Shown one piece after another: positions 4,266-16,731 of a stretch of DNA of 21,516 nucleotides. This DNA comes from a virus (Duplodnaviria; Heunggongvirae; Uroviricota; Caudoviricetes). Location: the IMG/VR virus record IMGVR_UViG_2718218434_000002, positions 1 through 21,516 of that record. The stretch is one strand, 5' to 3'. Below the pieces are notes generated by a model. The model searched no databases, was not told the origin of the DNA, and saw only the letters and a program-made list of their open reading frames with translations. Made by a program: the position numbers and the translations under genes. The stretch's first letter is position 1, and each line of letters begins with the position of its first letter.

Positions 4266-4747
4266 GACAGCAGCCCTCCCACCGTTTTACTGATATCGCT
4301 TAATGCAGATGTTGCCGTGTCCTGCAGATTATTCAGCTGCGCACTGAGATCACCGAACATATCGGACAGGGATTCATCCACTCGTTTGAGCGACAGGGTG
4401 AACTCAATCCGGCGCGGCATACCGTCGCGGAAAAACTCCGTTTTAGTCTGATTCAGTCCCTCAATCACATACATGCCGTAAATCGTGCCGCTGCCTTCAA
4501 TCAGGGGCCATGCTTTTCCCTGTTCTGCCATCTGCTCCAGTGCCAGCAACGACAGCCTGCCGCCTGTAATCTCCGGCATAAGAACGCCAGAAAGCGTCAG
4601 CATGTCGTTATCCGGTCCCAGAAACTGCGTTGACGGTCGTCGGTTAACCCGGCTGTTAGCCGCATGTCGCCAGCTGCGCTGATACTGCAGTTCCTGATAC
4701 GGCACGGTGCGCAGCATAAACACGTACAATCCCAGCACCATCATCAT
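4262..4747 (-). CDS. U: Phage tail protein U (P2 gpU family), 161 aa
   Basis: 161-aa ORF between T and D with 4-bp overlaps on both sides. Order T-U-D-ogr is diagnostic of P2-like tails. Confidence 0.85.
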   Translation of the reverse strand: MMMVLGLYVFMLRTVPYQELQYQRSWRHAANSRVNRRPSTQFLGPDNDMLTLSGVLMPEITGGRLSLLALEQMAEQGKAWPLIEGSGTIYGMYVIEGLNQTKTEFFRDGMPRRIEFTLSLKRVDESLSDMFGDLSAQLNNLQDTATSALSDISKTVGGLLS

Positions 4748-6558
4748 GCGTCGTATCCCCCCTGATCGCTGTAGTTACTCCTGGCTTTTGCCTTCAGCCT
4801 GCGTTCACGTTCATCAAGCTGGCGGGCCACCTCCCGCGCAATATCCTGCGCACTTTGTCCTGACTGCGTCTGGATGATGATCTGCGTCGGTGCCTCAATC
4901 CTGTAAACGGGCGGCACAGTGGCTGCGCGACTCACAATTGCTTCTCCACCTTTCGCGGGAAGTGCCAAAGGGTGCAACGGTGGAAGCTCTGCTGGCGCGG
5001 CAGCAACGCCCATCATTCCGGCAACAACGGCAGCCAGTGCAGCTGTATTTCTCCGGCTGGTCACATTTGCCGGGCCGTTGACAATTTCAGGCCCGTTTTC
5101 ACCGACGATGCCAAACTGCCCGCGCGGAATATAGCCGCCGCTGTCATACATCCCCGCAAAGCCATATCCCCATGACGGCAAACCACCCGATGGCATCATC
5201 ACTTTACCGTCTGCATTCACCGTCGCAGGTTGCTGACGCGTCACGCTTTCCGGTAGTTTTGCCTTTGCGGCCTCTTTACTGACAATGCCGAGTTTTTCCA
5301 GCAACCAGGAAACGCCGGATTTCAGGGAGTCCAGCGGATGCATGACCATATTCAGCCCTTCCGCCAGTGCCTCCCCGAATCGTCGCCCCATTGCCGCTGC
5401 GCTCTGCAGTTCGGCAGAGGTCGACTTAACAGGCGTCAGCAGATCAGTAAACCAGCCCCACAGCGCCTGCACTTTGTCGCCAATCCACTGAAACACAGGC
5501 TTAAGTGGTTCGAATGCAGCACTGATGGGACCTGCCGCCGCTTTGAATCCTTCCACCACTCCACCGAGAAATGCGGTGATGGGTTGCCAGTATTTCCAGA
5601 CAACCAGCGCCACGCCTGCCAGTGCAGTAACCACAAGACCTATCGGACTGAGCAGAGCACCTAACAGACCAGATATGGCATACAGGGCAACGCGCAGCAT
5701 CGCCAGTGGACCAGATGCCAGTACTCGCAGCACCGTACCTGCGGCGGTCAGTCCACCGCGCAGTACCGCCAGAGGATTCATAAACATCACAGCAACAGCA
5801 CGTAAACCGGATAATCCAGACCGCAATAGTGCAACCGGCGCACCTGCTACAGTTTTCAGGACATTCCCCGTCAGTGATGCCGTGCGACGCAAAGACGACA
5901 ACGGCGCAGTAAGTAAACCCGCTGCGTTGCCCGATGAAGCAAGCCCGCGTCGCAGCAGTGCCAGTGGTGCGCCAGCCAGCCAGGACAACGCGCTGCTGGT
6001 TCGTGTTACTGCTGCCGTAACGGAAGGTAACGTTTTGATACCCAGCACAGAGAATCCCAGACGGATCACTGCCAGCGGCCCCAGCACTGCAGCCAGCGCC
6101 ACCGCTAAGGTGCCGAGGCCTACGGTAACCGCAGCCACAATAGCGGCTACTTTCATCAGTGTGCCTGTCAGTTCCGGGTTAGCTTCCACCCAGCGGCGCA
6201 ACGCCCCCGTGATGCTTTTCACCGTGTACAGAATATTCATCAGCGGCTGGCGCAGCGTTTCGCCCAGGCTGCTGAAGGTGTTCTGCGCTCCGGTTTTGAC
6301 CAGCAACCACTGAGCAGAAAGTGAGTCTTTGTTGATGTCGGATTCTTTCTGCATGGAACCGAGCGCATCATTGCCCGCTGTCAGTTTTAGCTGGCGCTGT
6401 AGTTCCGGCAGGTTGTTTGCCAGTTTCGCCGCGTCATCGCCAAACTCTTTACCAAACAACATGGTCATGGCAGACAGACGCTTGTCCTGCGGCAGTGCGT
6501 TCACCTTGAGAAGCTGGAAGAAATCTTCCATTCCTCCATGTTCAACTACCAGCGCCAC
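4744..6558 (-). pseudogene. T: Tail tape-measure protein T, N-terminally truncated fragment (about 604 codons retained)
   Basis: Long Ala/Gly/Leu-rich repetitive protein typical of tape-measure proteins, directly upstream of U. The reading frame has no real start and runs head-on into the 5' end of the terminase fragment. P2 gpT is about 815 aa from memory. Confidence 0.8.
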
Positions 6559-7875
6559 TGGTGGGAAGCCGGAAAAACCAACCGCATCCGCAACCTGCTG
6601 AAGTCACGCCAGATCGGCGCGACCTTTTACTTTGCCCGTGAAGCCCTGATTGACGCCCTGCTTACCGGACGTAACCAGATTTTCCTTTCCGCCAGTAAGG
6701 CACAGGCGCACGTCTTTAAGCAGTACATCATCGACTTCGCCAAAGAAGTGGATGTGGAACTGAAAGGCGATCCGATGGTGCTTCCTAACGGGGCCACGCT
6801 TTACTTCCTCGGCACCAATGCCCGCACGGCCCAGAGTTATCACGGCAACCTGTATCTGGATGAATATTTCTGGATACCGAAATTTCAGGAGCTACGCAAA
6901 GTGGCTTCCGGTATGGCTATTCACAAGAAATGGCGGCAGACCTATTTTTCCACACCATCCAGCCTGACCCACAGTGCTTATCCGTTCTGGTCCGGTGCGC
7001 TGTTCAACCGTGGACGCAACAAAGCCGACAAGGTGGACATTGATCTGTCCCACAGTAATCTGGCCCCCGGCCTGCTGTGCGCTGACGGGCAATACCGCCA
7101 GATAGTCACCGTGGAAGATGCGGTGCGCGGTGGCTGTAACCTGTTCGACCTTGACCAGTTGCGCATGGAATACAGCCCGGACGAATACCAGAACCTGCTG
7201 ATGTGCGAGTTTGTGGACGATCTCGCGTCCGTGTTCCCGCTCAGCGAACTACAGGCGTGCATGGTGGACAGCTGGGAAGTCTGGACCGACTTTCATGCAC
7301 TGGCGCTGCGCCCGTTTGGCTGGCGCGAAGTGTGGATCGGTTATGACCCGGCAAAAGGTACGCAGAACGGCGACAGCGCCGGATGCGTGGTGGTGGCACC
7401 GCCAGCCGTGCCGGGCGGTAAGTTCCGCATTCTTGAGCGTCACCAGTGGCGCGGGATGGACTTCCGCGCCCAGGCTGACGCCATCAAAAAACTGACTGAA
7501 CAGTACAACGTGACATACATCGGTATCGACTCAACCGGCGTCGGTCACGGGGTTTACGAGAACGTGAAAGCGTTTTTTCCTGCCGTCCGGGAGTTTGTCT
7601 ACAACCCCAACGTTAAAAATGCCCTGGTACTCAAGGCCTACGACATTATCAGTCACCGCCGTCTGGAGTTTGACGCCGGACACACCGACATAGCGCAGTC
7701 ATTTATGGCAATCCGTCGCGCCACCACCGCCAGCGGCAACCGCCCGACCTATGAAGCCAGCCGCAGCGAAGAAGCCAGCCATGCCGATCTGGCGTGGGCA
7801 ACAATGCACGCACTGTTTAACGAACCGCTGCAGGGCGAGTCCGCCAATACCAGCAATATTGTGGAGATTTTTTGA
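6538..7875 (+). pseudogene. P: Terminase large (ATPase) subunit P, N-terminally truncated fragment (about 445 codons retained)
   Basis: Contains the P-loop-like LLKSRQIGATFYF segment and overlaps the Q start (TGATG), as in the P2 P-Q operon. No promoter or upstream sequence; the frame collides with the T fragment on the opposite strand. P2 gpP is about 590 aa from memory. Confidence 0.8.
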
Positions 7876-8952: not shown

Positions 8953-11289
8953 TTACAAATATGTATTGCTATGTAGAGATGTGTTTATTCCATCTTCTAT
9001 CTCAATTTTTGACGAAGCATACTCATCATTCGCACTATCATCAATATCAAACTCATCTTGTAGATGAAGTGACTCATTTAACGGTTTATAAAACTCACCC
9101 ATCATCATTTTGTAATGGGCAGTATGCTCACTACACTCAAATATCTTCTGAAAAACAATTAAATATTTTTGCACAGACTCCGTATCTAAATTCATATAAA
9201 GATCATCACCTGCAAAATGAGAACCATCATTAATCCATGACACTAAAGATTTAAATATGATTTTTTCATCACCATAAAAATGACACTCAAGCTTCCTAAT
9301 ATCCATCCCTCCTAATATCTTAAAGTAATTCTCCAAAATCCTTCGCATTGTATTTTGTATAGTATTATTATTAATATCTGTTCTTCTCAATTCGCACCAG
9401 AGCAAATCATAAGACGTTTTTATTGGGTTTGATTCGCACTTTTCAAGATATGAGACCTTCCCTTTTTTCCTTACAATCCAAAAAGTCTCCTCTTTCATTG
9501 CTTGATTACCGGATCTTTTAGTATTAAAAGTCAACTCTTTATGAAAATAAATATTATGCGTAAGGAATATAATTTGCTTAATATTTCCTTCATCCTTACG
9601 AACATCCTCCATTAAATCTTTAATCAACGAACTTACAATAAACAGAATATCACTATCTAAACTTGAAATTGGATCATCAAATACTACAACACGATCATCT
9701 AAAACACCTGATGCATTATCACTCCCTCTAACAAGACTATAAAAATACAAAAAAGTGATAAATGTCTTTTCTCCCTCGCTAAGAGTTGTACGAGCATTAT
9801 CTCCACTATCTCTCACTATCATATAATGCTTTTTATCTTCGGAGGGTTTTAAGTAAAAATTTTTGAAGCCATAAGAATCCAGAATCTTGTTAATTTTTGT
9901 AATAGTTGGAAGAGTACTGGTTTTATTAGACTCAATTGCCTCAATAGCCGAAGCATTTAACATTAACTTCTTTTTGTCTTCCTCTAACCCAGATTTAAGT
10001 CCTTGTAACCTCCTACTAAATTTATCAGATTCGCTACGGTAAGAAGTTATTTCAGACTTTAACTCCACCTTTACGATATATGCCCATATCTGATTAGAAA
10101 GATTACTAACCTCTACCTTTCTATTACTGTGTATTTTGTTATTATTATCTATCAATAGATTTGAATCATTCAAAAAAGAAATAAAATCATCAACAACTTC
10201 ACTTAAGTCACTAAAATGAACTGATTCACTTAAAAAATTGCGTTTGTTTTTTGCCAATTCAAAATTCTTGTTTAATTCAGATAATACTATCTTAGCCTTA
10301 TCCTCAAATACTTCATAATTTATGAATGGAGATTTAATCGCCCTTATATCATCTATCGCCTGCAAGATATTATTAAGTTGATGTTCATATTGTAAAACCA
10401 ATGCATCGATTTCTCTTTTTTTTAACTCGTATGTTTTATCAAAATATGATGATAGATTATCAAATATATTATCATTTACATCCTGTTGGCAGAATGGGCA
10501 CTTGGGATTAGATTTACTGAAATATGTTAAACCTTCCTTAACCCAATCACTGTTATTGAGCATTGTAATTAAGTCTGAAACACTAACGTCTTTTTTCCCT
10601 AGAATACGCTCACTCCAAATCTCCCTACTCAAAATATCATCTATCCCATTGAAGGATGGAATTGTAATTGATACATGTGATGTCAATTCAGTAGAAAAAA
10701 CAATTTTTGCTTTCTCAATTAGCTCTGCTATTGAGCAAACTTCTGATGTGTTATTTTCATACTCAGCCAACACTCTAGCTTTAAATTTTTCACTACTATT
10801 CCTTAATCCCTCAAAAGCCTTTGAGAACACATTATCATGTTTTATTTTTTGCTTCCAACATGAATCTTTAAAAGATTTTTCATGGTCTTCGATTTGTTTA
10901 ACAACGCCTAATATATTATCACCACCATCTATTAGCTTTTCCTTTGCTATAATAGATTCTATTAGCTTATTTTTTTCTTCTTCAAGAGATATTAGTTTCT
11001 CTTCATCCTCCTTAAGATCGCTACCAAGGGTAAATACACCTTTAATTTTATCTTGACTAAAATTTCTTTCAACAAAATCTTTATTATATACGTAGCTTAT
11101 TAAAGATATATTATTTTTCCATTTAATCGGACATGTTGGATATTGTTCAGGGTCATTAATAATTTTACTTATAGTTGTTTTACCTGCACCATTAGCTCCA
11201 TATAAATAGTTAAATTTAGAAAGCCCATGTAAAAGCTGAGTAGGGCCATTATATGAGCCTACTTTGTCAATAACTACCTCTTCAATCAT
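8953..11289 (-). CDS. Stand-alone ABC-type ATPase with coiled-coil CxxC hook and C-terminal nuclease-like domain (AAA_13 / RloC-PrrC-like candidate), 778 aa
   Basis: Motifs read from the translation: Walker A GANGAGKTT (aa 31-39, nt 11173-11199), CPFC near the middle of a long charged heptad-like insert (nt about 10486-10500), ABC signature LSEGEK, Walker B VVVFDDP, H-loop LTHN, then a roughly 200-aa tail containing RRILE and a later GSH. The gene is visibly AT-rich compared with flanking phage genes. Confidence 0.6.
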   Translation of the reverse strand: MIEEVVIDKVGSYNGPTQLLHGLSKFNYLYGANGAGKTTISKIINDPEQYPTCPIKWKNNISLISYVYNKDFVERNFSQDKIKGVFTLGSDLKEDEEKLISLEEEKNKLIESIIAKEKLIDGGDNILGVVKQIEDHEKSFKDSCWKQKIKHDNVFSKAFEGLRNSSEKFKARVLAEYENNTSEVCSIAELIEKAKIVFSTELTSHVSITIPSFNGIDDILSREIWSERILGKKDVSVSDLITMLNNSDWVKEGLTYFSKSNPKCPFCQQDVNDNIFDNLSSYFDKTYELKKREIDALVLQYEHQLNNILQAIDDIRAIKSPFINYEVFEDKAKIVLSELNKNFELAKNKRNFLSESVHFSDLSEVVDDFISFLNDSNLLIDNNNKIHSNRKVEVSNLSNQIWAYIVKVELKSEITSYRSESDKFSRRLQGLKSGLEEDKKKLMLNASAIEAIESNKTSTLPTITKINKILDSYGFKNFYLKPSEDKKHYMIVRDSGDNARTTLSEGEKTFITFLYFYSLVRGSDNASGVLDDRVVVFDDPISSLDSDILFIVSSLIKDLMEDVRKDEGNIKQIIFLTHNIYFHKELTFNTKRSGNQAMKEETFWIVRKKGKVSYLEKCESNPIKTSYDLLWCELRRTDINNNTIQNTMRRILENYFKILGGMDIRKLECHFYGDEKIIFKSLVSWINDGSHFAGDDLYMNLDTESVQKYLIVFQKIFECSEHTAHYKMMMGEFYKPLNESLHLQDEFDIDDSANDEYASSKIEIEDGINTSLHSNTYL

Positions 11290-11422: not shown

Positions 11423-11441
11423 CTCGTATCCCCGCCACGCC
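11423..11441 (-). other. cos-like cohesive-end sequence (P2/186 type)
   Basis: The minus strand reads GGCGTGGCGGGGATACGAG. The first 13 nt match the 186 cohesive end (GGCGTGGCGGGGAAAGCAT) as recalled. Orientation and position (Q side to the left, A side to the right) fit the P2 left end. Confidence 0.45.
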
Positions 11442-11712
11442 TGCCCGCTTTATATAGTGGTTTTCATGCACCTGCATGACATAAGCAAAAGCCCGCCATA
11501 CCTAGCAGGCCCCAACTAGAGCGATCCTTAAACGATCATGCGGATTCATGCAGTATAGACATGCAGTAGTTACGCCAAACCGTGTAGCGAGGCCACCTGC
11601 TAAAAATGTTCACGGAGTAACATTTGATCTCCACTGCAAAAAATGAAACTTTCGCTTTCACCAAATATAACAAGAGGTAATCTTTGGTGTTTTACACAGC
11701 AAACGGTGAGCC

Positions 11713-12294
11713 ATGAAAGTCAACATAAAACAGATTGTTGGAAATTGGGAATTAGGTCTTGCGATGGATAAACACAGCATCCGCAGCATTCCCATTGGTT
11801 ACGATGAGTGGGGACATATGCGGTTTGAGACGGAGCGTACTGAGGTAGGCGAATCTCTTTTCCAGCTTAAATACCGTGACGATTGGTCACAAGTTAAGCC
11901 TTTAGCCCAATGCCTAGCAGAGCATGCCTTTCCTCATTTCAGCAATGTCGGGTTTATCGTTCCAATGGCTGCATCTAATCAGCGTGCACGCCAGCCAGTG
12001 ACCGAAATAGCTCAGGAACTAGCCAAACTAGTTGGCAAACCATGCTTCGATGACCTCTTGTTGAAAGCCCCCGGCGGGGCATCGCTAAAGAACCTGAATA
12101 CAAAAGAAGAGAAAATCACGGCGCTGGGTAATTCGTTCTCTGTTAATGACAGTATTGAGAATAATGGCAACTGGAATGTCCTTATCATTGACGACCTCTA
12201 CCATACAGGCGCATCTATGGAGGCTGCTTGTGCTGTGCTAAACGATTATACTAAGGTTAGAAGCATTTATGTTGCAGCTTTGACTTGGAGATAG
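11713..12294 (+). CDS. Type I phosphoribosyltransferase-domain protein (PRTase), 193 aa
   Basis: PRPP-binding signature VLIIDDLYHTGASM (nt about 12178-12219) near the C-terminus. ATG preceded by GGTGAG. Its stop lies 2 nt before the next gene's ATG. Confidence 0.8.
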   Translation: MKVNIKQIVGNWELGLAMDKHSIRSIPIGYDEWGHMRFETERTEVGESLFQLKYRDDWSQVKPLAQCLAEHAFPHFSNVGFIVPMAASNQRARQPVTEIAQELAKLVGKPCFDDLLLKAPGGASLKNLNTKEEKITALGNSFSVNDSIENNGNWNVLIIDDLYHTGASMEAACAVLNDYTKVRSIYVAALTWR

Positions 12295-12296
12295 TG

Positions 12297-12854
12297 ATGA
12301 CTACGGTATTTGTTGCTGGTTCAATAACCATCAAAAACCTTGACACACTCATCGTGGATCGTCTGAAAAAAATTGTTAACTCGCGTTTTCGTATTGTAGT
12401 TGGTGATGCCAATGGTGTTGATTCATCTGTTCAACGCGTATTGCTAGAACTTGGATGTGAAAAAGCCACAGTATTCAGTAGCTCAGAAAAACCGCGCAAT
12501 AATCTTGGCTCATGGCCTGTACATGTAGTAAGTACTAGCCATGCAGCCGGCACTCGCGCGTTTTTCACTGCGAAAGATCTCAAAATGGCAGAAGAAGCCG
12601 ATTATGGATTAATGGTTTGGGATACGAAGAGCACGGGTACTCTGAGTAACGTGATTGAGCTTCTTAAACGTAAAAAATACTCTGTCGTTTTTGTTAATAA
12701 ATACAAAAAGTTCTTTATTATCAAATCTCCAGAGCACCTTGACGCTTTGATTAACTGCATGTCACCAGCCTCTTTGGAAAAAGCTGATGAAAAGATCAGA
12801 TTGCGCGAAAAAATCAACCAACTAAAAAACGAGCAAATCCAGATGTTTATGTGA
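12297..12854 (+). CDS. DprA/Smf-like (SLOG superfamily) Rossmann-fold protein, about 185 aa
   Basis: RIVVGDANGVDSSVQR resembles the DprA VSGLARGIDxxAH motif, and a later KSTGTLSNVIELLKRKK resembles the DprA SGS(L) region. ATG at 12297 with GGAG 7 nt upstream, so it is co-transcribed with the PRTase. The ORF track starts 4 codons earlier at TTG. Confidence 0.65.
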   Translation: MTTVFVAGSITIKNLDTLIVDRLKKIVNSRFRIVVGDANGVDSSVQRVLLELGCEKATVFSSSEKPRNNLGSWPVHVVSTSHAAGTRAFFTAKDLKMAEEADYGLMVWDTKSTGTLSNVIELLKRKKYSVVFVNKYKKFFIIKSPEHLDALINCMSPASLEKADEKIRLREKINQLKNEQIQMFM

Positions 12855-12943: not shown

Positions 12944-13177
12944 TTAATGCAGCCAGCTGTCGTCTTCCCACACCTTCTGCATAATTTTCATCACTTGTTT
13001 TCTTTCTTCGTCCAGTTGCAGTCCGGTCAGTTCCACACCGTTAGAGCTACCTTTTCGGATACGAATTACCGTTTTGGGATACAGGGGGCGCAGATTGCGG
13101 TAAAGCTCGGATTCAAGGGCGTCCAGGGTAGACTGGCTAATCTTCTGCTCTTTATCGATCATTATTTCAATGCGCAT
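12944..13177 (-). CDS. DinI-family protein (77 aa), equivalent to the C-terminal part of 186 Tum
   Basis: MRIEIMIDKEQKISQSTLDALESEL...KVWEDDSWLH aligns by eye with E. coli DinI (MRIEVTIAK...). Internal ATG at 13177 with GAGGTGA upstream chosen as the start. The ORF track's longer frame overlaps the upstream gene. Confidence 0.8.
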   Translation of the reverse strand: MRIEIMIDKEQKISQSTLDALESELYRNLRPLYPKTVIRIRKGSSNGVELTGLQLDEERKQVMKIMQKVWEDDSWLH

Positions 13178-13187
13178 AAAAGTCACC

Positions 13188-13376
13188 TCAACTGATGACA
13201 TCCATTGAGCGGTTGTATTCGTGAGTTCTGATTTTTGCCATGAGTTCATCAGTCAATTCAGAAACCCACTGCAGGGCCAGCCCCTTCTCTTCATCACTAC
13301 ACTCACTAGCCGCTACAAGCTTAAGAAAAAAATCAATGCGCTGGAGCTTCAAAGACTCCAAAAAATAGTCCTGCAT
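13188..13376 (-). CDS. Small acidic protein (62 aa), candidate Tum-like antirepressor N-terminal module
   Basis: ATG with a strong AGGAGG RBS, immediately downstream of a LexA box and 10 nt upstream of the dinI-like gene. Function inferred from the arrangement only. Confidence 0.5.
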   Translation of the reverse strand: MQDYFLESLKLQRIDFFLKLVAASECSDEEKGLALQWVSELTDELMAKIRTHEYNRSMDVIS

Positions 13377-13528: not shown

Positions 13529-15901
13529 TTAATACAGGTTTCGCCACTTATCATCTTCCTGCAAACGCTGGTTCCGATAGAAGATACGCAGGCCTGCTCC
13601 TGACGGAATACTGCCTCCGCGAAGCAGTAAATCGACCTCTTTCTCGCTGCCATCAAATCCCCTGGACTTCAGTTCATACACGAGCTGCAGTCGCTGATGG
13701 TCTGTAATTCGCTGTTTGTAGTCTTTACGCCGTTTCGGTTTCACCAGGCGTAACCTTGCTGCCAGTTCCCGGCGCTCTTTTTTGCTCATACTGTGCAGGT
13801 AATCGTGCAACTCCTTGTCATCCATGCGGGTGATATCCGTTCTGGTATCTCCATCAGCTGATTTGTCTTTCCCTTGTTGGTACAAATTTTCAGCAAGGGG
13901 ACAGTTATTGCCACGAGTCCAAGGGGCGCAAGCGCCCTGGCCGGCTGCCGCCTCCTGAACATCAACGGCCTTACGAACCATTTTCCACTTCACGGCATGA
14001 GTGCAGATCTTGCCCTCTGCAATAGGTGACCAGATGCCATAAATACGAATGCCGTGATCGCCATAGGCGGTCGGCTCTTCGTTGATTTCATAAGCGGTTC
14101 TGATGAGGTGATATTTGCGGGGAACCAGTACGCCGCCCTGCTTCATGATGTAGGTGGCAAAACAACCAGCATCAGCAGCAGCCAGGATGGCATCAAGGCG
14201 CGGGTTATCCAGTACCGGCGCACCTGCTTTTTTGTCCCCCTGTTGCCTTGCCGCCTGACCAGCCAGCAATCGCAGTTCACGGTAAGCCTGACGCCCCGGA
14301 ATGCCAAAGAAGCGGAATTGCTGAACACGATGCAGAGACGCCCAGGCATTAACGTATTCAGCATTATCACGCAGGGATTTCCCCGTTTCCTTGCTGATCT
14401 CGCCAGCCAGACCACGCCCGTCAATGTTCTTACTGATGTATTTCGCGATGTAGCTTGTTGGCGTACCTTTGCGCGGGTTAATCAACTCAGACTTAAAGCG
14501 CGGCCCAGTGTTATTGCCCAGTTCCTCGCGGTCTTCACGGATGGCAAACTTACGCAGTAATGCAGTGATGGCGCGGCGGTCTTTTTTGCGCATAAAACAC
14601 AACAGGTGCCAGTGAACTGTACCGTCATGATGCGGCTCAGCCACCCGCACGCCATACCACCGCAATCCGGCTTTGTGCATCGCCTTACGAAATGCAGCAA
14701 ACATGCCGACCAGATAATCACTGCTTTGTCTTACCGTCGCATTTGTCCAAGTTGGGTTGGGCCTGCCATTATTTAGCGTGGAATGGAAACGTGACGGACA
14801 GGTGATGGTGTAGAAAACGGCGCAGTCACCGCGCATTTCCGCGATAAGCTCCAGGCCTTTAACACAGGCCATCATCTCATTGCGGCGATGCGCAGGGTTG
14901 CTGCTGCTGGCGTTTACCACGTCTTCCATATCCAGCGTGTCGCCGTCTTCGTTCACCAGTTCATGAGAACGAAAAAACTCCAGCGACTTACGGCGCTGCT
15001 CACGTTTATGCATCACGGCTTCATAGCTGACATAGGGAGATGCTTTTTTGCTGACCAGGCAGACAGCACGCAACTGCTCTTCCCGCCATTCGCAACGCAT
15101 CTTCCATAATTTCCGGTACCACCAGTCAGCGCACAACATACGCGCCAGCGAACCCGGAATGAGTTCATAGGGCACGGGTTTACGGCGGTTTCTTTTCCGG
15201 CGGAGTTGCTCAAACGCAGGCGGGATGACATCCAGACGCAGGGTTTCCGCTGCCACCTTTTCCCATGTCTTGCGGATTTCTTCTGGCTTAACGTCATCGG
15301 TGACATACAAATCGCCACAAGCTGCATCAAGGCACATGCTCATATGCGCAGCTACCAGGGTGGACAGGCGTTTCACCTGATCCTGACTCATTTCAGGCAG
15401 GATCAGCAGGCCGTCCAGCCCTTCATGGCTTGCCATAAAGCGAAAAGAAGTGGATAGCTGACAGTCGCGTACATGCTCCAGCCGTTCCAGACATGGCTTA
15501 ATCGTCTCACGCAAATAGCGGGAATAAGCCTTTGGCCTGCCCAGGCTGCTGAAGTATTCAATACGTTGCATCAGCGGCTTGCTGATATGGGAAGGCTGGG
15601 CATTGACGTCCGCCAGAATGACCATATCTGGATTAAAACGCTGCTGCTCATGCGCCAGCTTTGCCCGACTAATGAGCTTATCCTGCTCCATTTCGCGCTG
15701 GACAGGATCACGGGATTCATTAAAGAAATAACGCTCCCAGACCTGATCACTCAGTGCCTCGCGGCGCAGCTGTTCCTGCTCGTTATCGGCAGCGTACAGA
15801 GCGATCAGGTTTGAAAGCGCAGAAACTGAAGATTGCTCTTCTGTCTCTACGTAAGGATTGATTGCTTTTTTCTCAGCATTCCAGGAATAGCTGTAGTTCA
15901 T
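13529..15901 (-). CDS. A: Replication initiation protein A (rolling-circle HUH endonuclease, P2 gpA family), about 790 aa
   Basis: HUH motif in [15 protein letters not shown] and the downstream [12 protein letters not shown] segment match P2 gpA from memory. Start set at the ATG that overlaps the stop of the upstream gene (TAATG). The ORF track extends 17 codons further. Confidence 0.9.
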
Positions 15902-16731
15902 TACGCAATCTCCAGTTCGAGCTGTGAAGGCTGCAAACCATTCGACAGCCAATCAGAAACTGAAGGTGGGCGAACAGCTTCAATTGCACCTTTTAAAATT
16001 GCGCAACGGTTTTTCAGAATGACAGCTTTCAGCTCCTTTTCCGTCAGATTGCGCGAATACTCAGCCTCCTGAATAGCCCGCGTCAGCTCAGGATATTTGC
16101 TATTAAATTTGGGGACATTGCAGGCAAGATTTGTACTGTCGGCAGTCGCCAGTGGGTAATTTCCCAACACACGACCGTCAAGCATGCGCAAACCATGAAC
16201 AGCTGTTTTGAAATTGTGTCGGCAATAAATTGCTTCAAAAGCGTCCTGCATACGACGATGCCAGTGCGCAGTTCTGATAGCCGCATATTCACCAGACGAT
16301 CCAAAGCAGACACGAGGCCATTCACGACATAGCTCGATAAGCCGATCGATTGACTCGTGCAGATGCCAGACGGGAGTTGCCTTCCCGTAGAACATTTTCG
16401 GAACTTCGTTTATCAGGGCATCATTGTCACGTTCACCTCCGTCCACAACATCAGGAATGACAAAAAAAGCGACCTTAGGATGGTGGTAATAGTTCAGGAG
16501 CCATTTATAAAAATCACTCCAGTTAATTTTTAGCCCACGCACCCATGCAGAAAATGCGCCGTTATCAATGCCGACGACCTGAGCGTGCTGAATGGACGCC
16601 GCAATCTGATCTGGTCGTACATAGGAGACGAAAGCGCCAGCTCCGCTCACCGCAATACGATGAACGTCGCCAGCACTTCCCCAGACAGGCGTCCCATGGA
16701 AATGATGAATTCCGTGGTGCATTTCTTTCAC
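15901..16731 (-). CDS. Hypothetical protein (276 aa) coupled to the Dam methylase; possible TIM-barrel TGT/DpdA-like DNA-modification enzyme
   Basis: Translationally coupled to dam upstream (GTGA overlap) and to A downstream. Motif order GIDNGAFS ... FFVIPDVV ... CFGSSGEY ... ATADSTN loosely parallels the tRNA-guanine transglycosylase motifs TDSGGFQ ... IFDEC ... LMGVG ... MFDCV. The fold assignment is tentative. Confidence 0.7.

What the first reader, a model, noticed from the sequence alone, without database searches (positions are those of the whole stretch)
11713..12854. Two-gene operon: phosphoribosyltransferase plus DprA/SLOG-like protein in the P2 cargo hotspot
The two ORFs are separated by 2 nt and share one promoter region. 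The first has the canonical type I PRTase PRPP loop (VLIIDDLYHTGASM). The second has a DprA-like Rossmann signature (VVGDANGVDSSVQR) of the SLOG superfamily, which is associated with nucleotide binding and processing. Neither is a normal P2/186 gene, and the pair occupies the old/tin position between cos and gene A, a known anti-phage cargo hotspot in P2-like phages. As I recall, a DprA plus PRTase pair has been reported from such hotspots with no known mechanism. This looks like a nucleotide-based defence module and is the best candidate here for a poorly characterised system.
Basis: partly seen in the sequence, partly recalled or inferred. Interest (0 to 1): 0.78.

Follow-up and report, generated by a model that had tools for sequence, protein, structure and literature searches.

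The report
Compact PRTase–SLOG toxin–antitoxin-like phage cargo
A defective P2-like prophage of E. coli carries, in its known defence-gene hotspot, a tightly coupled two-gene module (a small ComF-like phosphoribosyltransferase plus a small DprA-like SLOG protein) that looks like a stripped-down, untested relative of the ShosTA/PsyrTA toxin–antitoxin anti-phage systems.

Summary

This is not the DprA+PRTase system validated by Rousset et al. 2022, which is ShosTA with proteins of 424 and about 327 aa. It is their untested catalogue entry "system #98" (33 occurrences).

The pair travels as a unit across phyla on prophages, plasmids and chromosomal islets. ORF1 never occurs without ORF2 (92 of 92 loci). 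ORF2 often survives loss of ORF1 (18 of 80 loci). PRTase–SLOG fusions exist.

Best reading: a minimal ShosTA/PsyrTA-class toxin (PRTase) and antitoxin (SLOG) module, probably acting in abortive infection. This is a new variant of a known kind, and its function is untested.

The parts
11423..11441 (-). cos-like 19-mer (GGCGTGGCGGGGATACGAG on the minus strand). It marks the phage-end side of the cargo slot.
   Evidence: Matches the reverse complement of P2 cos at 14 of 19 positions and is the best match in the window. The flanking sequence resembles the cos region in Rousset's cloned P2 hotspot fragment.
11442..11712 (+). Upstream non-coding region of the operon. A promoter is presumed here but was not identified.
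   Evidence: This is the intergenic space before ORF1. The simple scan found no sigma-70 consensus.
11713..12294 (+). ORF1: 193-aa ComF-like type I phosphoribosyltransferase (PGAP 'ComF family protein', WP_024219116.1). Putative toxin or effector.
   Evidence: PADLOC ShosT 1.3e-8 and PsyrT 1.5e-7. NCBIfam comF 23.8 bits, far below the 233.55 cutoff. AF2 pLDDT 91. Foldseek top hit is H. pylori ComF 7p0h, followed by APRTs and ShosT 8zvd/8zvb.
12178..12219 (+). PRPP-binding loop VLIIDDLYHTGASM (residues 156-169). D160 is invariant and D161 nearly invariant; these two correspond to ShosT D331/D332.
   Evidence: Alignment A2: D160, T165 and G166 invariant, D161 at least 90% conserved. hhalign places this stretch on ShosT KILVIDDFCTEGN. 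The ShosT D331A/D332A mutant loses toxicity (PMC11961720).
12287..12291 (+). GGAGA Shine-Dalgarno sequence for ORF2, inside the 3' end of ORF1 (translational coupling).
   Evidence: Read directly from the sequence.
12297..12854 (+). ORF2: 185-aa SLOG-fold, DprA-like protein with a C-terminal helical tail (hypothetical protein WP_024219117.1). Putative antitoxin or sensor.
12402..12422 (+). SLOG/DprA-type motif GDAxGxD (residues 36-42).
   Evidence: G36, D37, A38, G40 and D42 are invariant. They remain nearly invariant in 87 diverse relatives. The motif aligns to ShosA GLAYGID.
12618..12641 (+). Motif WDxKSxGT (residues 108-115), equivalent to DprA 'KSG[ST]' and LOG 'PGGxGT'. The LOG catalytic Glu positions are S117 and N118 here.
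   Evidence: Invariant columns W108, D109, S112, G114 and T115. Aligns to ShosA WGLKSGT.
8953..11289 (-). Neighbouring, independent cargo gene on the other side of cos: a 778-aa AAA_13 ATPase (PADLOC candidate PDC-S06). It is not part of the pair.
   Evidence: Pfam AAA_13 1.6e-163 and PADLOC PDC-S06 8e-266. GC 30% against 40-47% for the pair. Rousset system #5, 420 occurrences.

Best explanation
ORF1 and ORF2 form a self-contained, horizontally mobile two-gene module of the ShosTA / PsyrTA(RqlHI) class, reduced to the two core domains.

ORF1 is a ComF-like PRTase. It binds PRPP through its intact DD loop and transfers phosphoribose to an unknown acceptor: a purine-like base or nucleotide, or possibly DNA. 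This damages nucleotide pools or DNA and is toxic. This step is inferred from homology to the ShosT and RqlH PRTase domains.

ORF2 is a minimal DprA-like SLOG protein, translationally coupled downstream, that keeps ORF1 harmless. It could bind ssDNA or support repair as ShosA does, bind ORF1 directly as RqlI binds RqlH, or bind or hydrolyse the phosphoribosylated product. This step is inferred, and the mode is not resolved.

When an infecting phage shuts off host gene expression or floods the cell with ssDNA, the protective ORF2 activity is lost. The PRTase then stops growth before the phage completes its cycle (abortive infection), which protects the lysogen population and the prophage. The same addiction logic would stabilise plasmids that carry the pair.

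Shown here: the anatomy, the folds, the motif conservation, the strict co-occurrence and asymmetric loss, and the residence on mobile elements and in hotspots. Inferred: toxicity, neutralisation, the trigger and phage protection.
For: 1. Folds and motifs.
- ORF1 is a PRTase closest to ComF and ShosT, with D160, T165 and G166 invariant and D161 nearly invariant.
- ORF2 is a SLOG protein whose best Foldseek hit is ShosA, and its motifs align to ShosA/DprA motifs.

2. Gene order.
- The order PRTase then SLOG, with a 2-nt gap, matches rqlH then rqlI (PMC4670107).

3. The pair is one unit.
- Of 80 genome loci seeded with ORF2, from 364 matching species spanning Gamma-, Beta-, Delta- and Alphaproteobacteria, Acidobacteria and a Peptococcaceae MAG, 62 have an intact ORF1 immediately upstream.
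- The pairwise-identity matrices of the two proteins correlate at r=0.92.
- No third gene is conserved across genera.

4. Loss is asymmetric, as in toxin-antitoxin pairs.
- All 19 viral and 73 metagenomic loci seeded with ORF1 that have room downstream carry a full ORF2.
- In 18 of the 80 ORF2-seeded loci ORF1 is truncated (11 loci, at six distinct endpoints among the Pseudomonas loci) or absent (7 loci), while ORF2 stays intact. Fisher p=3e-7.

5. A fusion exists.
- P0390 is a single protein with an N-terminal PRTase (ShosT 9e-12, Pribosyltran above its gathering score) and a C-terminal ORF2-like SLOG domain.
- Other relatives fuse the SLOG domain to Abi_alpha, HEPN_AbiU2, NADAR or DUF4326.

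6. Context.
- The pair sits in the P2 cos/old-tin hotspot here.
- A second E. coli allele lies between gpD and ogr of another P2-like element.
- Other copies lie at a prophage end next to an integrase and an R-M island in Providencia, and next to repA on conjugative IncF Klebsiella plasmids.
- In Pseudomonas and Vogesella the neighbours are AbiL and McrBC-like genes.

7. Prior listing and precedents.
- The pair is catalogued as P2-hotspot system #98 by Rousset et al..
- ShosTA defends against T7 and lambda, its toxicity needs the PRPP-loop DD, and its antitoxin is unstable (PMC9122126, PMC11961720, PMC12961424).
- RqlH toxicity needs its PRTase domain.
Against: - No experiment exists for this pair. 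It was listed but not tested by Rousset et al.
- Sequence links to the named systems are weak. The ShosT hit is 33 bits over part of the profile. ORF2 does not hit ShosA and hits PsyrA at only E=0.018. hhalign against the ShosA and ShosT sequences gives E=0.03 and 0.013, with probabilities of 1.6% and 3.3%.
- ORF1 lacks the accessory domains of both known toxins (ShosT's PPase domain, RqlH's helicase). [quoted passage not shown]
- ORF2 lacks DprA's SAM and C-terminal domains. In this clade it also lacks the Arg of the DprA 'GSR' motif (it reads GSI), so ShosA-style ssDNA/RecA action cannot be assumed.
- The asymmetry statistic is inflated by relatedness: 11 of the 18 decayed loci are one syntenic Pseudomonas site.
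- No homolog was found in 50,697 deposited phage genomes.
- The host prophage here is defective, and no promoter was identified.
Confidence: 0.6

Rival explanations
1. The pair is a pure addiction or stabilisation toxin-antitoxin module for mobile elements (prophage, plasmid, islet). It has no role in phage defence, and its hotspot location reflects only where cargo is tolerated.
For: The pair lies directly downstream of repA on conjugative IncFIB/IncFII Klebsiella plasmids and occurs as isolated two-gene islets between housekeeping genes in Neisseria. It persists in a defective prophage. The asymmetric loss pattern fits any toxin-antitoxin pair.
Against: It occupies two different P2 variable slots that are rich in validated defence systems. 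Its closest characterised relatives (ShosTA, PsyrTA) are both toxin-antitoxin pairs and defence systems. Decayed copies sit beside AbiL and McrBC-like genes. Relatives of the SLOG domain are fused to Abi_alpha and HEPN_AbiU2 abortive-infection effectors.
Confidence: 0.17
2. The pair is an enzymatic writer/eraser couple rather than a classical toxin-antitoxin pair. ORF1 phosphoribosylates a base, free or in ssDNA/DNA. ORF2 is a catalytically active SLOG hydrolase that removes or degrades that adduct, by analogy with DarT/DarG or with the phosphoribohydrolase activity of LOG. Defence would arise when phage DNA is modified faster than it is repaired, or when the eraser is lost.
Against: The positions of the LOG catalytic Glu in PGGxGTxxE are S117 and N118 in ORF2 (KSTGTLSN). 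At motif level ORF2 is nearest to DprA/ShosA, which bind DNA and are not enzymes. No acceptor is known even for ShosT. ShosT toxicity was linked to purine metabolism, not to DNA adducts.
Confidence: 0.13
3. The pair is a housekeeping or competence function: a genuine ComF/DprA-type DNA-uptake pair or a nucleotide-salvage enzyme pair, mis-read as cargo.
For: PGAP names ORF1 'ComF family protein'. The best Foldseek hit is H. pylori ComF. ComFC and DprA both act in natural transformation (PMC9005727 abstract; PMC5512222).
Against: The TIGR00201 score is 23.8 against a cutoff of 233.55. ORF1 has no Cys before residue 67, so it lacks the ComF N-terminal zinc finger. The pair is present in only 16 of 5426 complete E. 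coli genomes and in 364 of 185,579 species, always on mobile or variable loci. Its GC differs from its surroundings. ORF2 does not pass PF02481.
Confidence: 0.02
4. The pair is a counter-defence cargo that benefits the phage. The SLOG protein would sequester an immune signalling nucleotide (as ThsA SLOG binds gcADPR), and the PRTase would rebuild a depleted nucleotide pool.
Against: The pair also lives on plasmids and chromosomal islets without any phage. The loss of ORF1 but never ORF2 is not expected for a two-enzyme salvage or sponge pair. ORF1 groups with the toxic ShosT/PsyrT PRTases. No homolog was found in 50,697 phage isolate genomes.
Confidence: 0.04

Closest known systems
ShosTA (the DprA+PRTase system of Rousset et al. 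2022; E. coli APEC O1/KTE181; PDB 8zva, 8zvb, 8zvd)
   Same: It is a two-gene PRTase plus DprA-like SLOG pair in the same P2 cos-proximal hotspot. ORF1 hits the PADLOC ShosT profile at 1.3e-8 and shares the DD PRPP loop. ShosA is ORF2's best Foldseek hit, and the GxAxGxD, P(K/R)N and KSxGT motifs align.
   Different: ShosT is 424 aa with an N-terminal HAD-like pyrophosphatase domain, whereas ORF1 is 193 aa with only a small beta-hairpin N-terminus. ShosA is about 327 aa, is a clear PF02481 member (HHpred 100%), binds ssDNA and RecA, and forms a dimer. ORF2 is 185 aa, hits neither PF02481 nor the ShosA profile, has GSI in place of the GSR-type motif, and has a different helical tail. Rousset lists the two as separate systems (#9 and #98).
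PsyrTA / RqlHI
   Same: The toxin gene precedes the antitoxin gene in a tight operon. Toxicity depends on a ComF-like PRTase domain, and the antitoxin has a DprA-like region. ORF1 hits PsyrT positions 538-681 (1.5e-7), and ORF2's only PADLOC hit is PsyrA (0.018).
   Different: PsyrT/RqlH is about 690 aa with a RecQ-like helicase domain that is needed together with the PRTase domain. RqlI is 400 aa. Here both proteins are reduced to single domains.
ComFC and DprA of natural transformation
   Same: H. pylori ComF is the best structural match for ORF1. ORF2 shares the DprA Rossmann/SLOG core. The two families are functionally linked on ssDNA (PMC5512222).
   Different: ORF1 has no zinc finger, there is no competence synteny, the pair is mobile and patchily distributed, and scores fall far below family cutoffs.
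SLOG superfamily families YpsA, Moco-carrier/TM1055-like and LOG
   Different: No Pfam model of these families is hit at E<=1 by ORF2 itself. The LOG catalytic Glu is absent. ORF2 belongs to a distinct family with no Pfam model and at least 1310 clusters at 50% identity.
PRTase effectors of type III retrons and Ophion (OpnC)
   Same: These are defence-associated PRTases, reported to belong to one clade with ShosT and PsyrT (bioRxiv 10.1101/2025.09.30.679545).
   Different: Their partner genes differ (reverse transcriptase/msDNA, or rSAM plus PHP), and they have no SLOG partner.

Membership tests
Type I phosphoribosyltransferase superfamily (Pfam PF00156) | PRPP-binding loop: hydrophobic run, two acidic residues, then T/S-G | tested here: met
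   VLIIDDLYHTGAS at residues 156-168. D160, T165 and G166 are invariant and D161 is at least 90% conserved in 38 homologs.
Type I phosphoribosyltransferase superfamily (Pfam PF00156) | PRTase core fold | tested here: met
   AF2 pLDDT 91. Foldseek gives 131 PDB hits at E<=1e-3; the 50 best listed are PRTase-fold proteins, including ComF, APRT, OPRT, HGPRT, PyrR, PurR and ShosT.
Type I phosphoribosyltransferase superfamily (Pfam PF00156) | Pfam gathering score | tested here: not met
   15.6 bits against 26.3, with only residues 153-179 aligned.
ComF family (TIGR00201) | Curated score cutoff | tested here: not met
   23.8 bits against 233.55.
ComF family (TIGR00201) | N-terminal Cys4 zinc finger and competence-gene context | tested here: not met
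   There is no Cys in ORF1 residues 1-66. The contexts are prophage, plasmid or islet.
ShosTA | ShosT: two-domain toxin (N-terminal HAD-like PPase plus C-terminal PRTase, 424 aa) | tested here: not met
   ORF1 is 193 aa. The PADLOC ShosT match covers only profile positions 81-208 of 237. The architecture is from PMC11961720.
ShosTA | ShosA: DprA family (PF02481) antitoxin | tested here: not met
ShosTA | Toxin neutralised by antitoxin; protection against phage (T7, lambda) | not testable with these tools
   This needs expression and plaque assays. Indirect support comes from the asymmetric loss of ORF1 against ORF2.
PsyrTA / RqlHI | RecQ-like helicase fused to the PRTase in the toxin | tested here: not met
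   ORF1 has no helicase domain. Only the PsyrT C-terminal positions 538-681 are matched.
PsyrTA / RqlHI | Toxin gene upstream of a DprA-like antitoxin gene in one operon | tested here: met
   ORF1 precedes ORF2 with a 2-nt gap. The rqlH-rqlI order is from PMC4670107.
PsyrTA / RqlHI | PsyrA profile match | tested here: inconclusive
   E=0.018, 12.1 bits.
SLOG superfamily | Rossmannoid SLOG fold with a Gly-rich loop after strand 1 and GxD and GT motifs | tested here: met
DprA/Smf family proper | PF02481 match, the G-S/T-R ssDNA-binding motif, and flanking SAM and DML1/winged-helix domains | tested here: not met
   No Pfam hit. The motif reads GSI here, although it is GSR in the consensus of the wider family. 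The protein is 185 aa with only a helical tail.
LOG phosphoribohydrolases | PGGxGTxxE catalytic motif with a conserved Glu | tested here: not met
   The equivalent stretch is KSTGTLSN (G114, T115 and N118 invariant, S117 variable), with no Glu at the LOG positions. The motif definition is from established knowledge of the LOG family.

The most novel reading that the evidence does not exclude
ORF2 is not a passive DprA-like DNA binder. It is an active SLOG enzyme or product-binding protein that reverses or captures the phosphoribosyl adduct made by ORF1. That would make the pair a minimal writer/eraser system for a new base modification (phosphoribosylation of a nucleobase, nucleotide or DNA). 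It would also be the simplest handle for identifying the still-unknown acceptor substrate of the whole ShosT/PsyrT/retron-PRTase effector clade.
Probability: 0.15. Interest if true: 0.8.

Novelty: new variant of a known kind. Interest (0 to 1): 0.5.

Why it matters
Defence-associated PRTases (ShosT, PsyrT/RqlH, type III retron effectors, Ophion OpnC) form a growing effector class, and the acceptor substrate of this class is still unknown.

This pair strips the system down to two single-domain proteins of about 190 aa each. It is widespread: 364 species have a copy, and the SLOG partner family has at least 1310 clusters at 50% identity. It has no Pfam model and no dedicated PADLOC model, so current defence annotation probably misses it.

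If it is toxic and protective, it would be the minimal model for working out what these PRTases modify and how SLOG/DprA-like partners neutralise them. If it is neither, that would show that the accessory domains of ShosT and RqlH are essential.

Tried and rejected
1. Sequence searches of both proteins against PDB chains found nothing significant, and neither ShosT nor ShosA was hit. A profile built from 87 diverse ORF2 relatives also found nothing. Only fold comparison linked them.
2. hhalign of the family alignments against the ShosA and ShosT sequences gave only motif-level matches, with E=0.03 and 0.013 and probabilities of 1.6% and 3.3%. Homology to ShosTA therefore rests on fold and motifs, not on significant profile scores.
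3. The promoter and terminator scan found no credible promoter upstream of ORF1 and no terminator after ORF2.
4. A search for a conserved third gene near the pair found only Pseudomonas-specific synteny, so a three-component system was rejected.
5. The AAA_13 neighbour was considered as a partner and rejected. It is on the opposite strand, on the other side of cos, has 30% GC, and is absent from other contexts of the pair.
6. Searches of deposited phage genomes for the operon or for ORF2 homologs found no match beyond the flanking cos and DinI sequences.
7. Literature searches for the protein accessions and for SLOG plus PRTase defence systems found no paper on this pair apart from the Rousset supplementary table.
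8. The housekeeping ComF/salvage reading was rejected on scores, missing zinc finger and distribution.
9. The contig look-up for P0083 (Comamonas) returned only a 1-kb contig and was uninformative.
Full report
**1. Observation**

The window is an E. coli chromosomal segment, 100% identical to strain D2 (NZ_CP010137). It carries a P2-like prophage inserted between ybjL and rcdA.

ORF1 runs from 11713 to 12294 (193 aa). ORF2 starts at the ATG at 12297 and runs to 12854 (185 aa). The ORF1 stop codon TAG (12292-12294) is 2 nt from the ORF2 start. A GGAGA ribosome-binding site for ORF2 lies inside the end of ORF1.

Both ORFs have hundreds of homologs with invariant motif columns, so they are real genes.

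A cos-like 19-mer sits at 11423-11441. The DinI-like gene (12944-13249, minus strand) and the gene A replication endonuclease (13529-15952, minus strand) follow ORF2. The pair therefore occupies the old/tin slot.

Its GC content (40-47%) differs from the phage core (about 53%) and from the neighbouring AAA_13 gene (about 30%). A promoter could not be identified by a simple consensus scan.

**2. What the proteins are**

Curated HMMs do not place either protein.
- ORF1 scores 15.6 bits on Pribosyltran, below the 26.3 gathering score. It scores 23.8 bits on TIGR00201 comF, against a cutoff of 233.55, even though PGAP names it 'ComF family protein'.
- ORF2 has no Pfam or NCBIfam hit at E<=1.
- In PADLOC, ORF1 hits ShosT (1.3e-8) and the C-terminal PRTase part of PsyrT (1.5e-7). 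ORF2 hits only PsyrA, at E=0.018.
- PDB sequence searches were empty.

AlphaFold2 models built on alignments of 38-39 homologs are confident, with pLDDT 91 for ORF1 and 94 for ORF2.
- ORF1 has a type I PRTase fold. Its best match is H. pylori ComF (7p0h), and ShosT (8zvd, 8zvb) is among the hits.
- ORF1 has an N-terminal four-stranded beta unit in place of ComF's zinc finger.
- In the PRPP loop, D160, T165 and G166 are invariant and D161 is at least 90% conserved.
- ORF2 is a SLOG domain with a C-terminal helical tail. Foldseek ranks ShosA (8zva) first, then H. pylori DprA.
- At motif level ORF2 lines up with ShosA/DprA: GDAxGxD with GLAYGID, PRNN with YPKN, and WDTKSTGT with WGLKSGT.
- ORF2 lacks the Arg of the DprA GSR motif in this clade, and it lacks the LOG catalytic Glu.
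- Among 87 diverse relatives, only a few weakly touch DNA_processg_A, Nuc_deoxyrib_tr or YAcAr. ORF2 therefore belongs to a distinct SLOG family with no Pfam model and at least 1310 clusters at 50% identity.

**3. The pair is a mobile unit with toxin-antitoxin-like asymmetry**

An ORF2-seeded scan of one genome per species found relatives in 364 species. Among the 80 best loci, the pair spans Gamma-, Beta-, Delta- and Alphaproteobacteria, Acidobacteria and a Peptococcaceae MAG at 53-74% identity.
- In 62 of the 80 loci an intact ORF1 lies immediately upstream. In 11 it is truncated, and in 7 it is absent. ORF2 remains intact in all of them.
- Conversely, all 19 viral and all 73 metagenomic ORF1-seeded loci with enough room carry a full ORF2 directly downstream.
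- Fisher's exact test gives p=3e-7. Eleven of the 18 decayed cases are one syntenic Pseudomonas site, so the events are fewer than the counts suggest. The Pseudomonas truncations nevertheless end at six distinct points (query residues 126, 133, 138, 145 (two loci) and 148), which argues for several independent events.
- The pairwise-identity matrices of the two proteins correlate at r=0.92.
- No third gene is conserved across genera.
- A single-polypeptide PRTase-SLOG fusion exists (P0390). Other relatives fuse the SLOG domain to Abi_alpha, HEPN_AbiU2, NADAR, DUF4326 or an antidote domain.

The contexts are mobile or variable.
- This P2 hotspot.
- A second E. coli allele (63% identical) between gpD and ogr of another P2-like element.
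- A prophage end beside an integrase and a SinI R-M island in Providencia.
- A two-gene islet in Neisseria dentiae.
- The position just downstream of repA on conjugative IncF Klebsiella plasmids, with 38 plasmid records in all.
- Some decayed copies lie next to AbiL or McrBC-like genes.

**4. Relation to what is known**

Rousset et al. 2022 validated a 'DprA + PRTase' system from the P2 hotspot of E. coli APEC O1 against T7 and lambda. That system is ShosTA.
- ShosT is 424 aa, with an N-terminal HAD-like pyrophosphatase domain and a C-terminal PRTase domain.
- ShosA is an approximately 327-aa genuine DprA family member.
- Its mechanism is partly known. PRPP binding and the DD pair are required for toxicity, purine metabolism is disturbed, and cells filament and accumulate DNA duplications. 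ShosA binds ssDNA and RecA and is intrinsically unstable. T7 Gp0.7-mediated shutoff triggers the system.

[quoted passage not shown] The listed ORF1 sequence is identical to the window's and the ORF2 sequence differs by one residue. It was not among the systems tested. I found no later paper on it.

RqlHI/PsyrTA is the other relative. It pairs a RecQ-like helicase-PRTase toxin with a downstream 400-aa DprA-like antitoxin, in the same gene order as here.

**5. Mechanism**

Most likely (confidence about 0.6) this is a minimal ShosTA/PsyrTA-class module.
- ORF1 is a PRPP-dependent toxic PRTase.
- ORF2 is its translationally coupled SLOG antitoxin.
- Phage-induced loss or titration of ORF2 would release the toxin and cause abortive infection.
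- The same logic gives plasmid or prophage addiction.

How ORF2 neutralises ORF1 is open. It could act through DNA and repair as ShosA does, bind ORF1 directly as RqlI binds RqlH, or bind or hydrolyse the product.

The dense set of invariant polar residues in ORF2 and the NADAR/DUF4326 fusions keep an enzymatic 'eraser' model alive (about 0.13-0.15), although the LOG catalytic Glu is missing. The hydrophobic C-termini of ORF2 homologs (MFA, LFA, LSF, ALI) might act as a degron, by analogy with ShosA's C-terminal instability. That is speculation.

Housekeeping ComF or salvage readings are rejected, and a counter-defence reading is unlikely.

**6. Verdict**

The pair is not the published validated system, and the 'no known mechanism' statement is out of date for that relative.

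This is a new variant of a known kind. It has been catalogued but is unnamed and untested, and it has no Pfam model and no dedicated PADLOC model. Interest is moderate (0.5). Its value is as the minimal, widespread representative of the defence PRTase-SLOG class, whose acceptor substrate is still unknown.

Noticed in passing
window 8953-11289 (-): A 778-aa AAA_13 ATPase (Pfam 1.6e-163; PADLOC candidate PDC-S06, 8e-266), with a weaker PrrC match at residues 458-704 (4.3e-11) and a LmuB match (1.8e-13, two stretches spanning residues 79-587). GC is only about 30%. It lies between the portal gene and cos, so it is a second, independent cargo gene of the hotspot (Rousset system #5, 420 occurrences).
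   Followed up: partly
window 4744-7875: The prophage is defective. The tail tape-measure gene (4744-6513, minus strand) and the large terminase gene (6505-7875, plus strand) are both truncated pseudogenes that abut each other. This implies a large internal deletion that removed most head, lysis, baseplate and tail genes. The hotspot cargo and the immunity/replication region are retained.
   Followed up: partly
L082 7411-8558 (and L083-L087): A second E. coli allele of the same pair (ORF2 63% identical) sits in a different variable slot, between gpD and ogr of a P2-like element next to ihfA/pheST. It is listed in 1119 blocks of the assembly index but is found in only 8 of 5426 complete genomes.
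   Followed up: partly
L040-L081 (Pseudomonas fluorescens-group loci; e.g. L065 5594-8558, L074 5643-8558): About 25 Pseudomonas species carry the pair at one syntenic chromosomal site. ORF1 has been truncated there at several different points or lost, while ORF2 stays intact. In L065 and L074 an AbiLi/AbiLii pair (PADLOC 1.7e-78 and 5.2e-21) occupies the place of the ORF1 5' part.
   Followed up: partly
proteins P0390, P0326, P0310, P0300, P0368, P0288 (relatives of ORF2): Domain fusions of the ORF2-type SLOG domain were found: PRTase-SLOG (P0390), NADAR-SLOG (P0326), DUF4326-SLOG (P0310), SLOG-Abi_alpha (P0300), SLOG-HEPN_AbiU2 (P0368, a sub-threshold Pfam hit) and SLOG-antidote HI1420 (P0288). 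Together they suggest a ligand-sensing or ligand-processing role in several conflict systems.
   Followed up: partly
L192 6001-7139 (Klebsiella pneumoniae plasmid NZ_CP041094): The pair (about 67% nucleotide identity) lies just downstream of repA on conjugative IncFIB/IncFII plasmids. There are 38 plasmid records, mostly Klebsiella. This is consistent with a maintenance or addiction role.
   Followed up: partly
window 12944-13249 (-): The DinI-like ORF is 101 aa from its first ATG, but PGAP annotates only 77 aa (12944-13177). The Pfam DinI domain covers residues 38-100, so the true start is uncertain.
   Followed up: no
window 12297-12851 (ORF2), PHROG hit: ORF2 matches positions 22-169 of phrog_289, which is annotated 'GTP-binding domain' (E=6.7e-10). 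The phage protein family may contain an unrecognised SLOG domain, and its label may be misleading.
   Followed up: no
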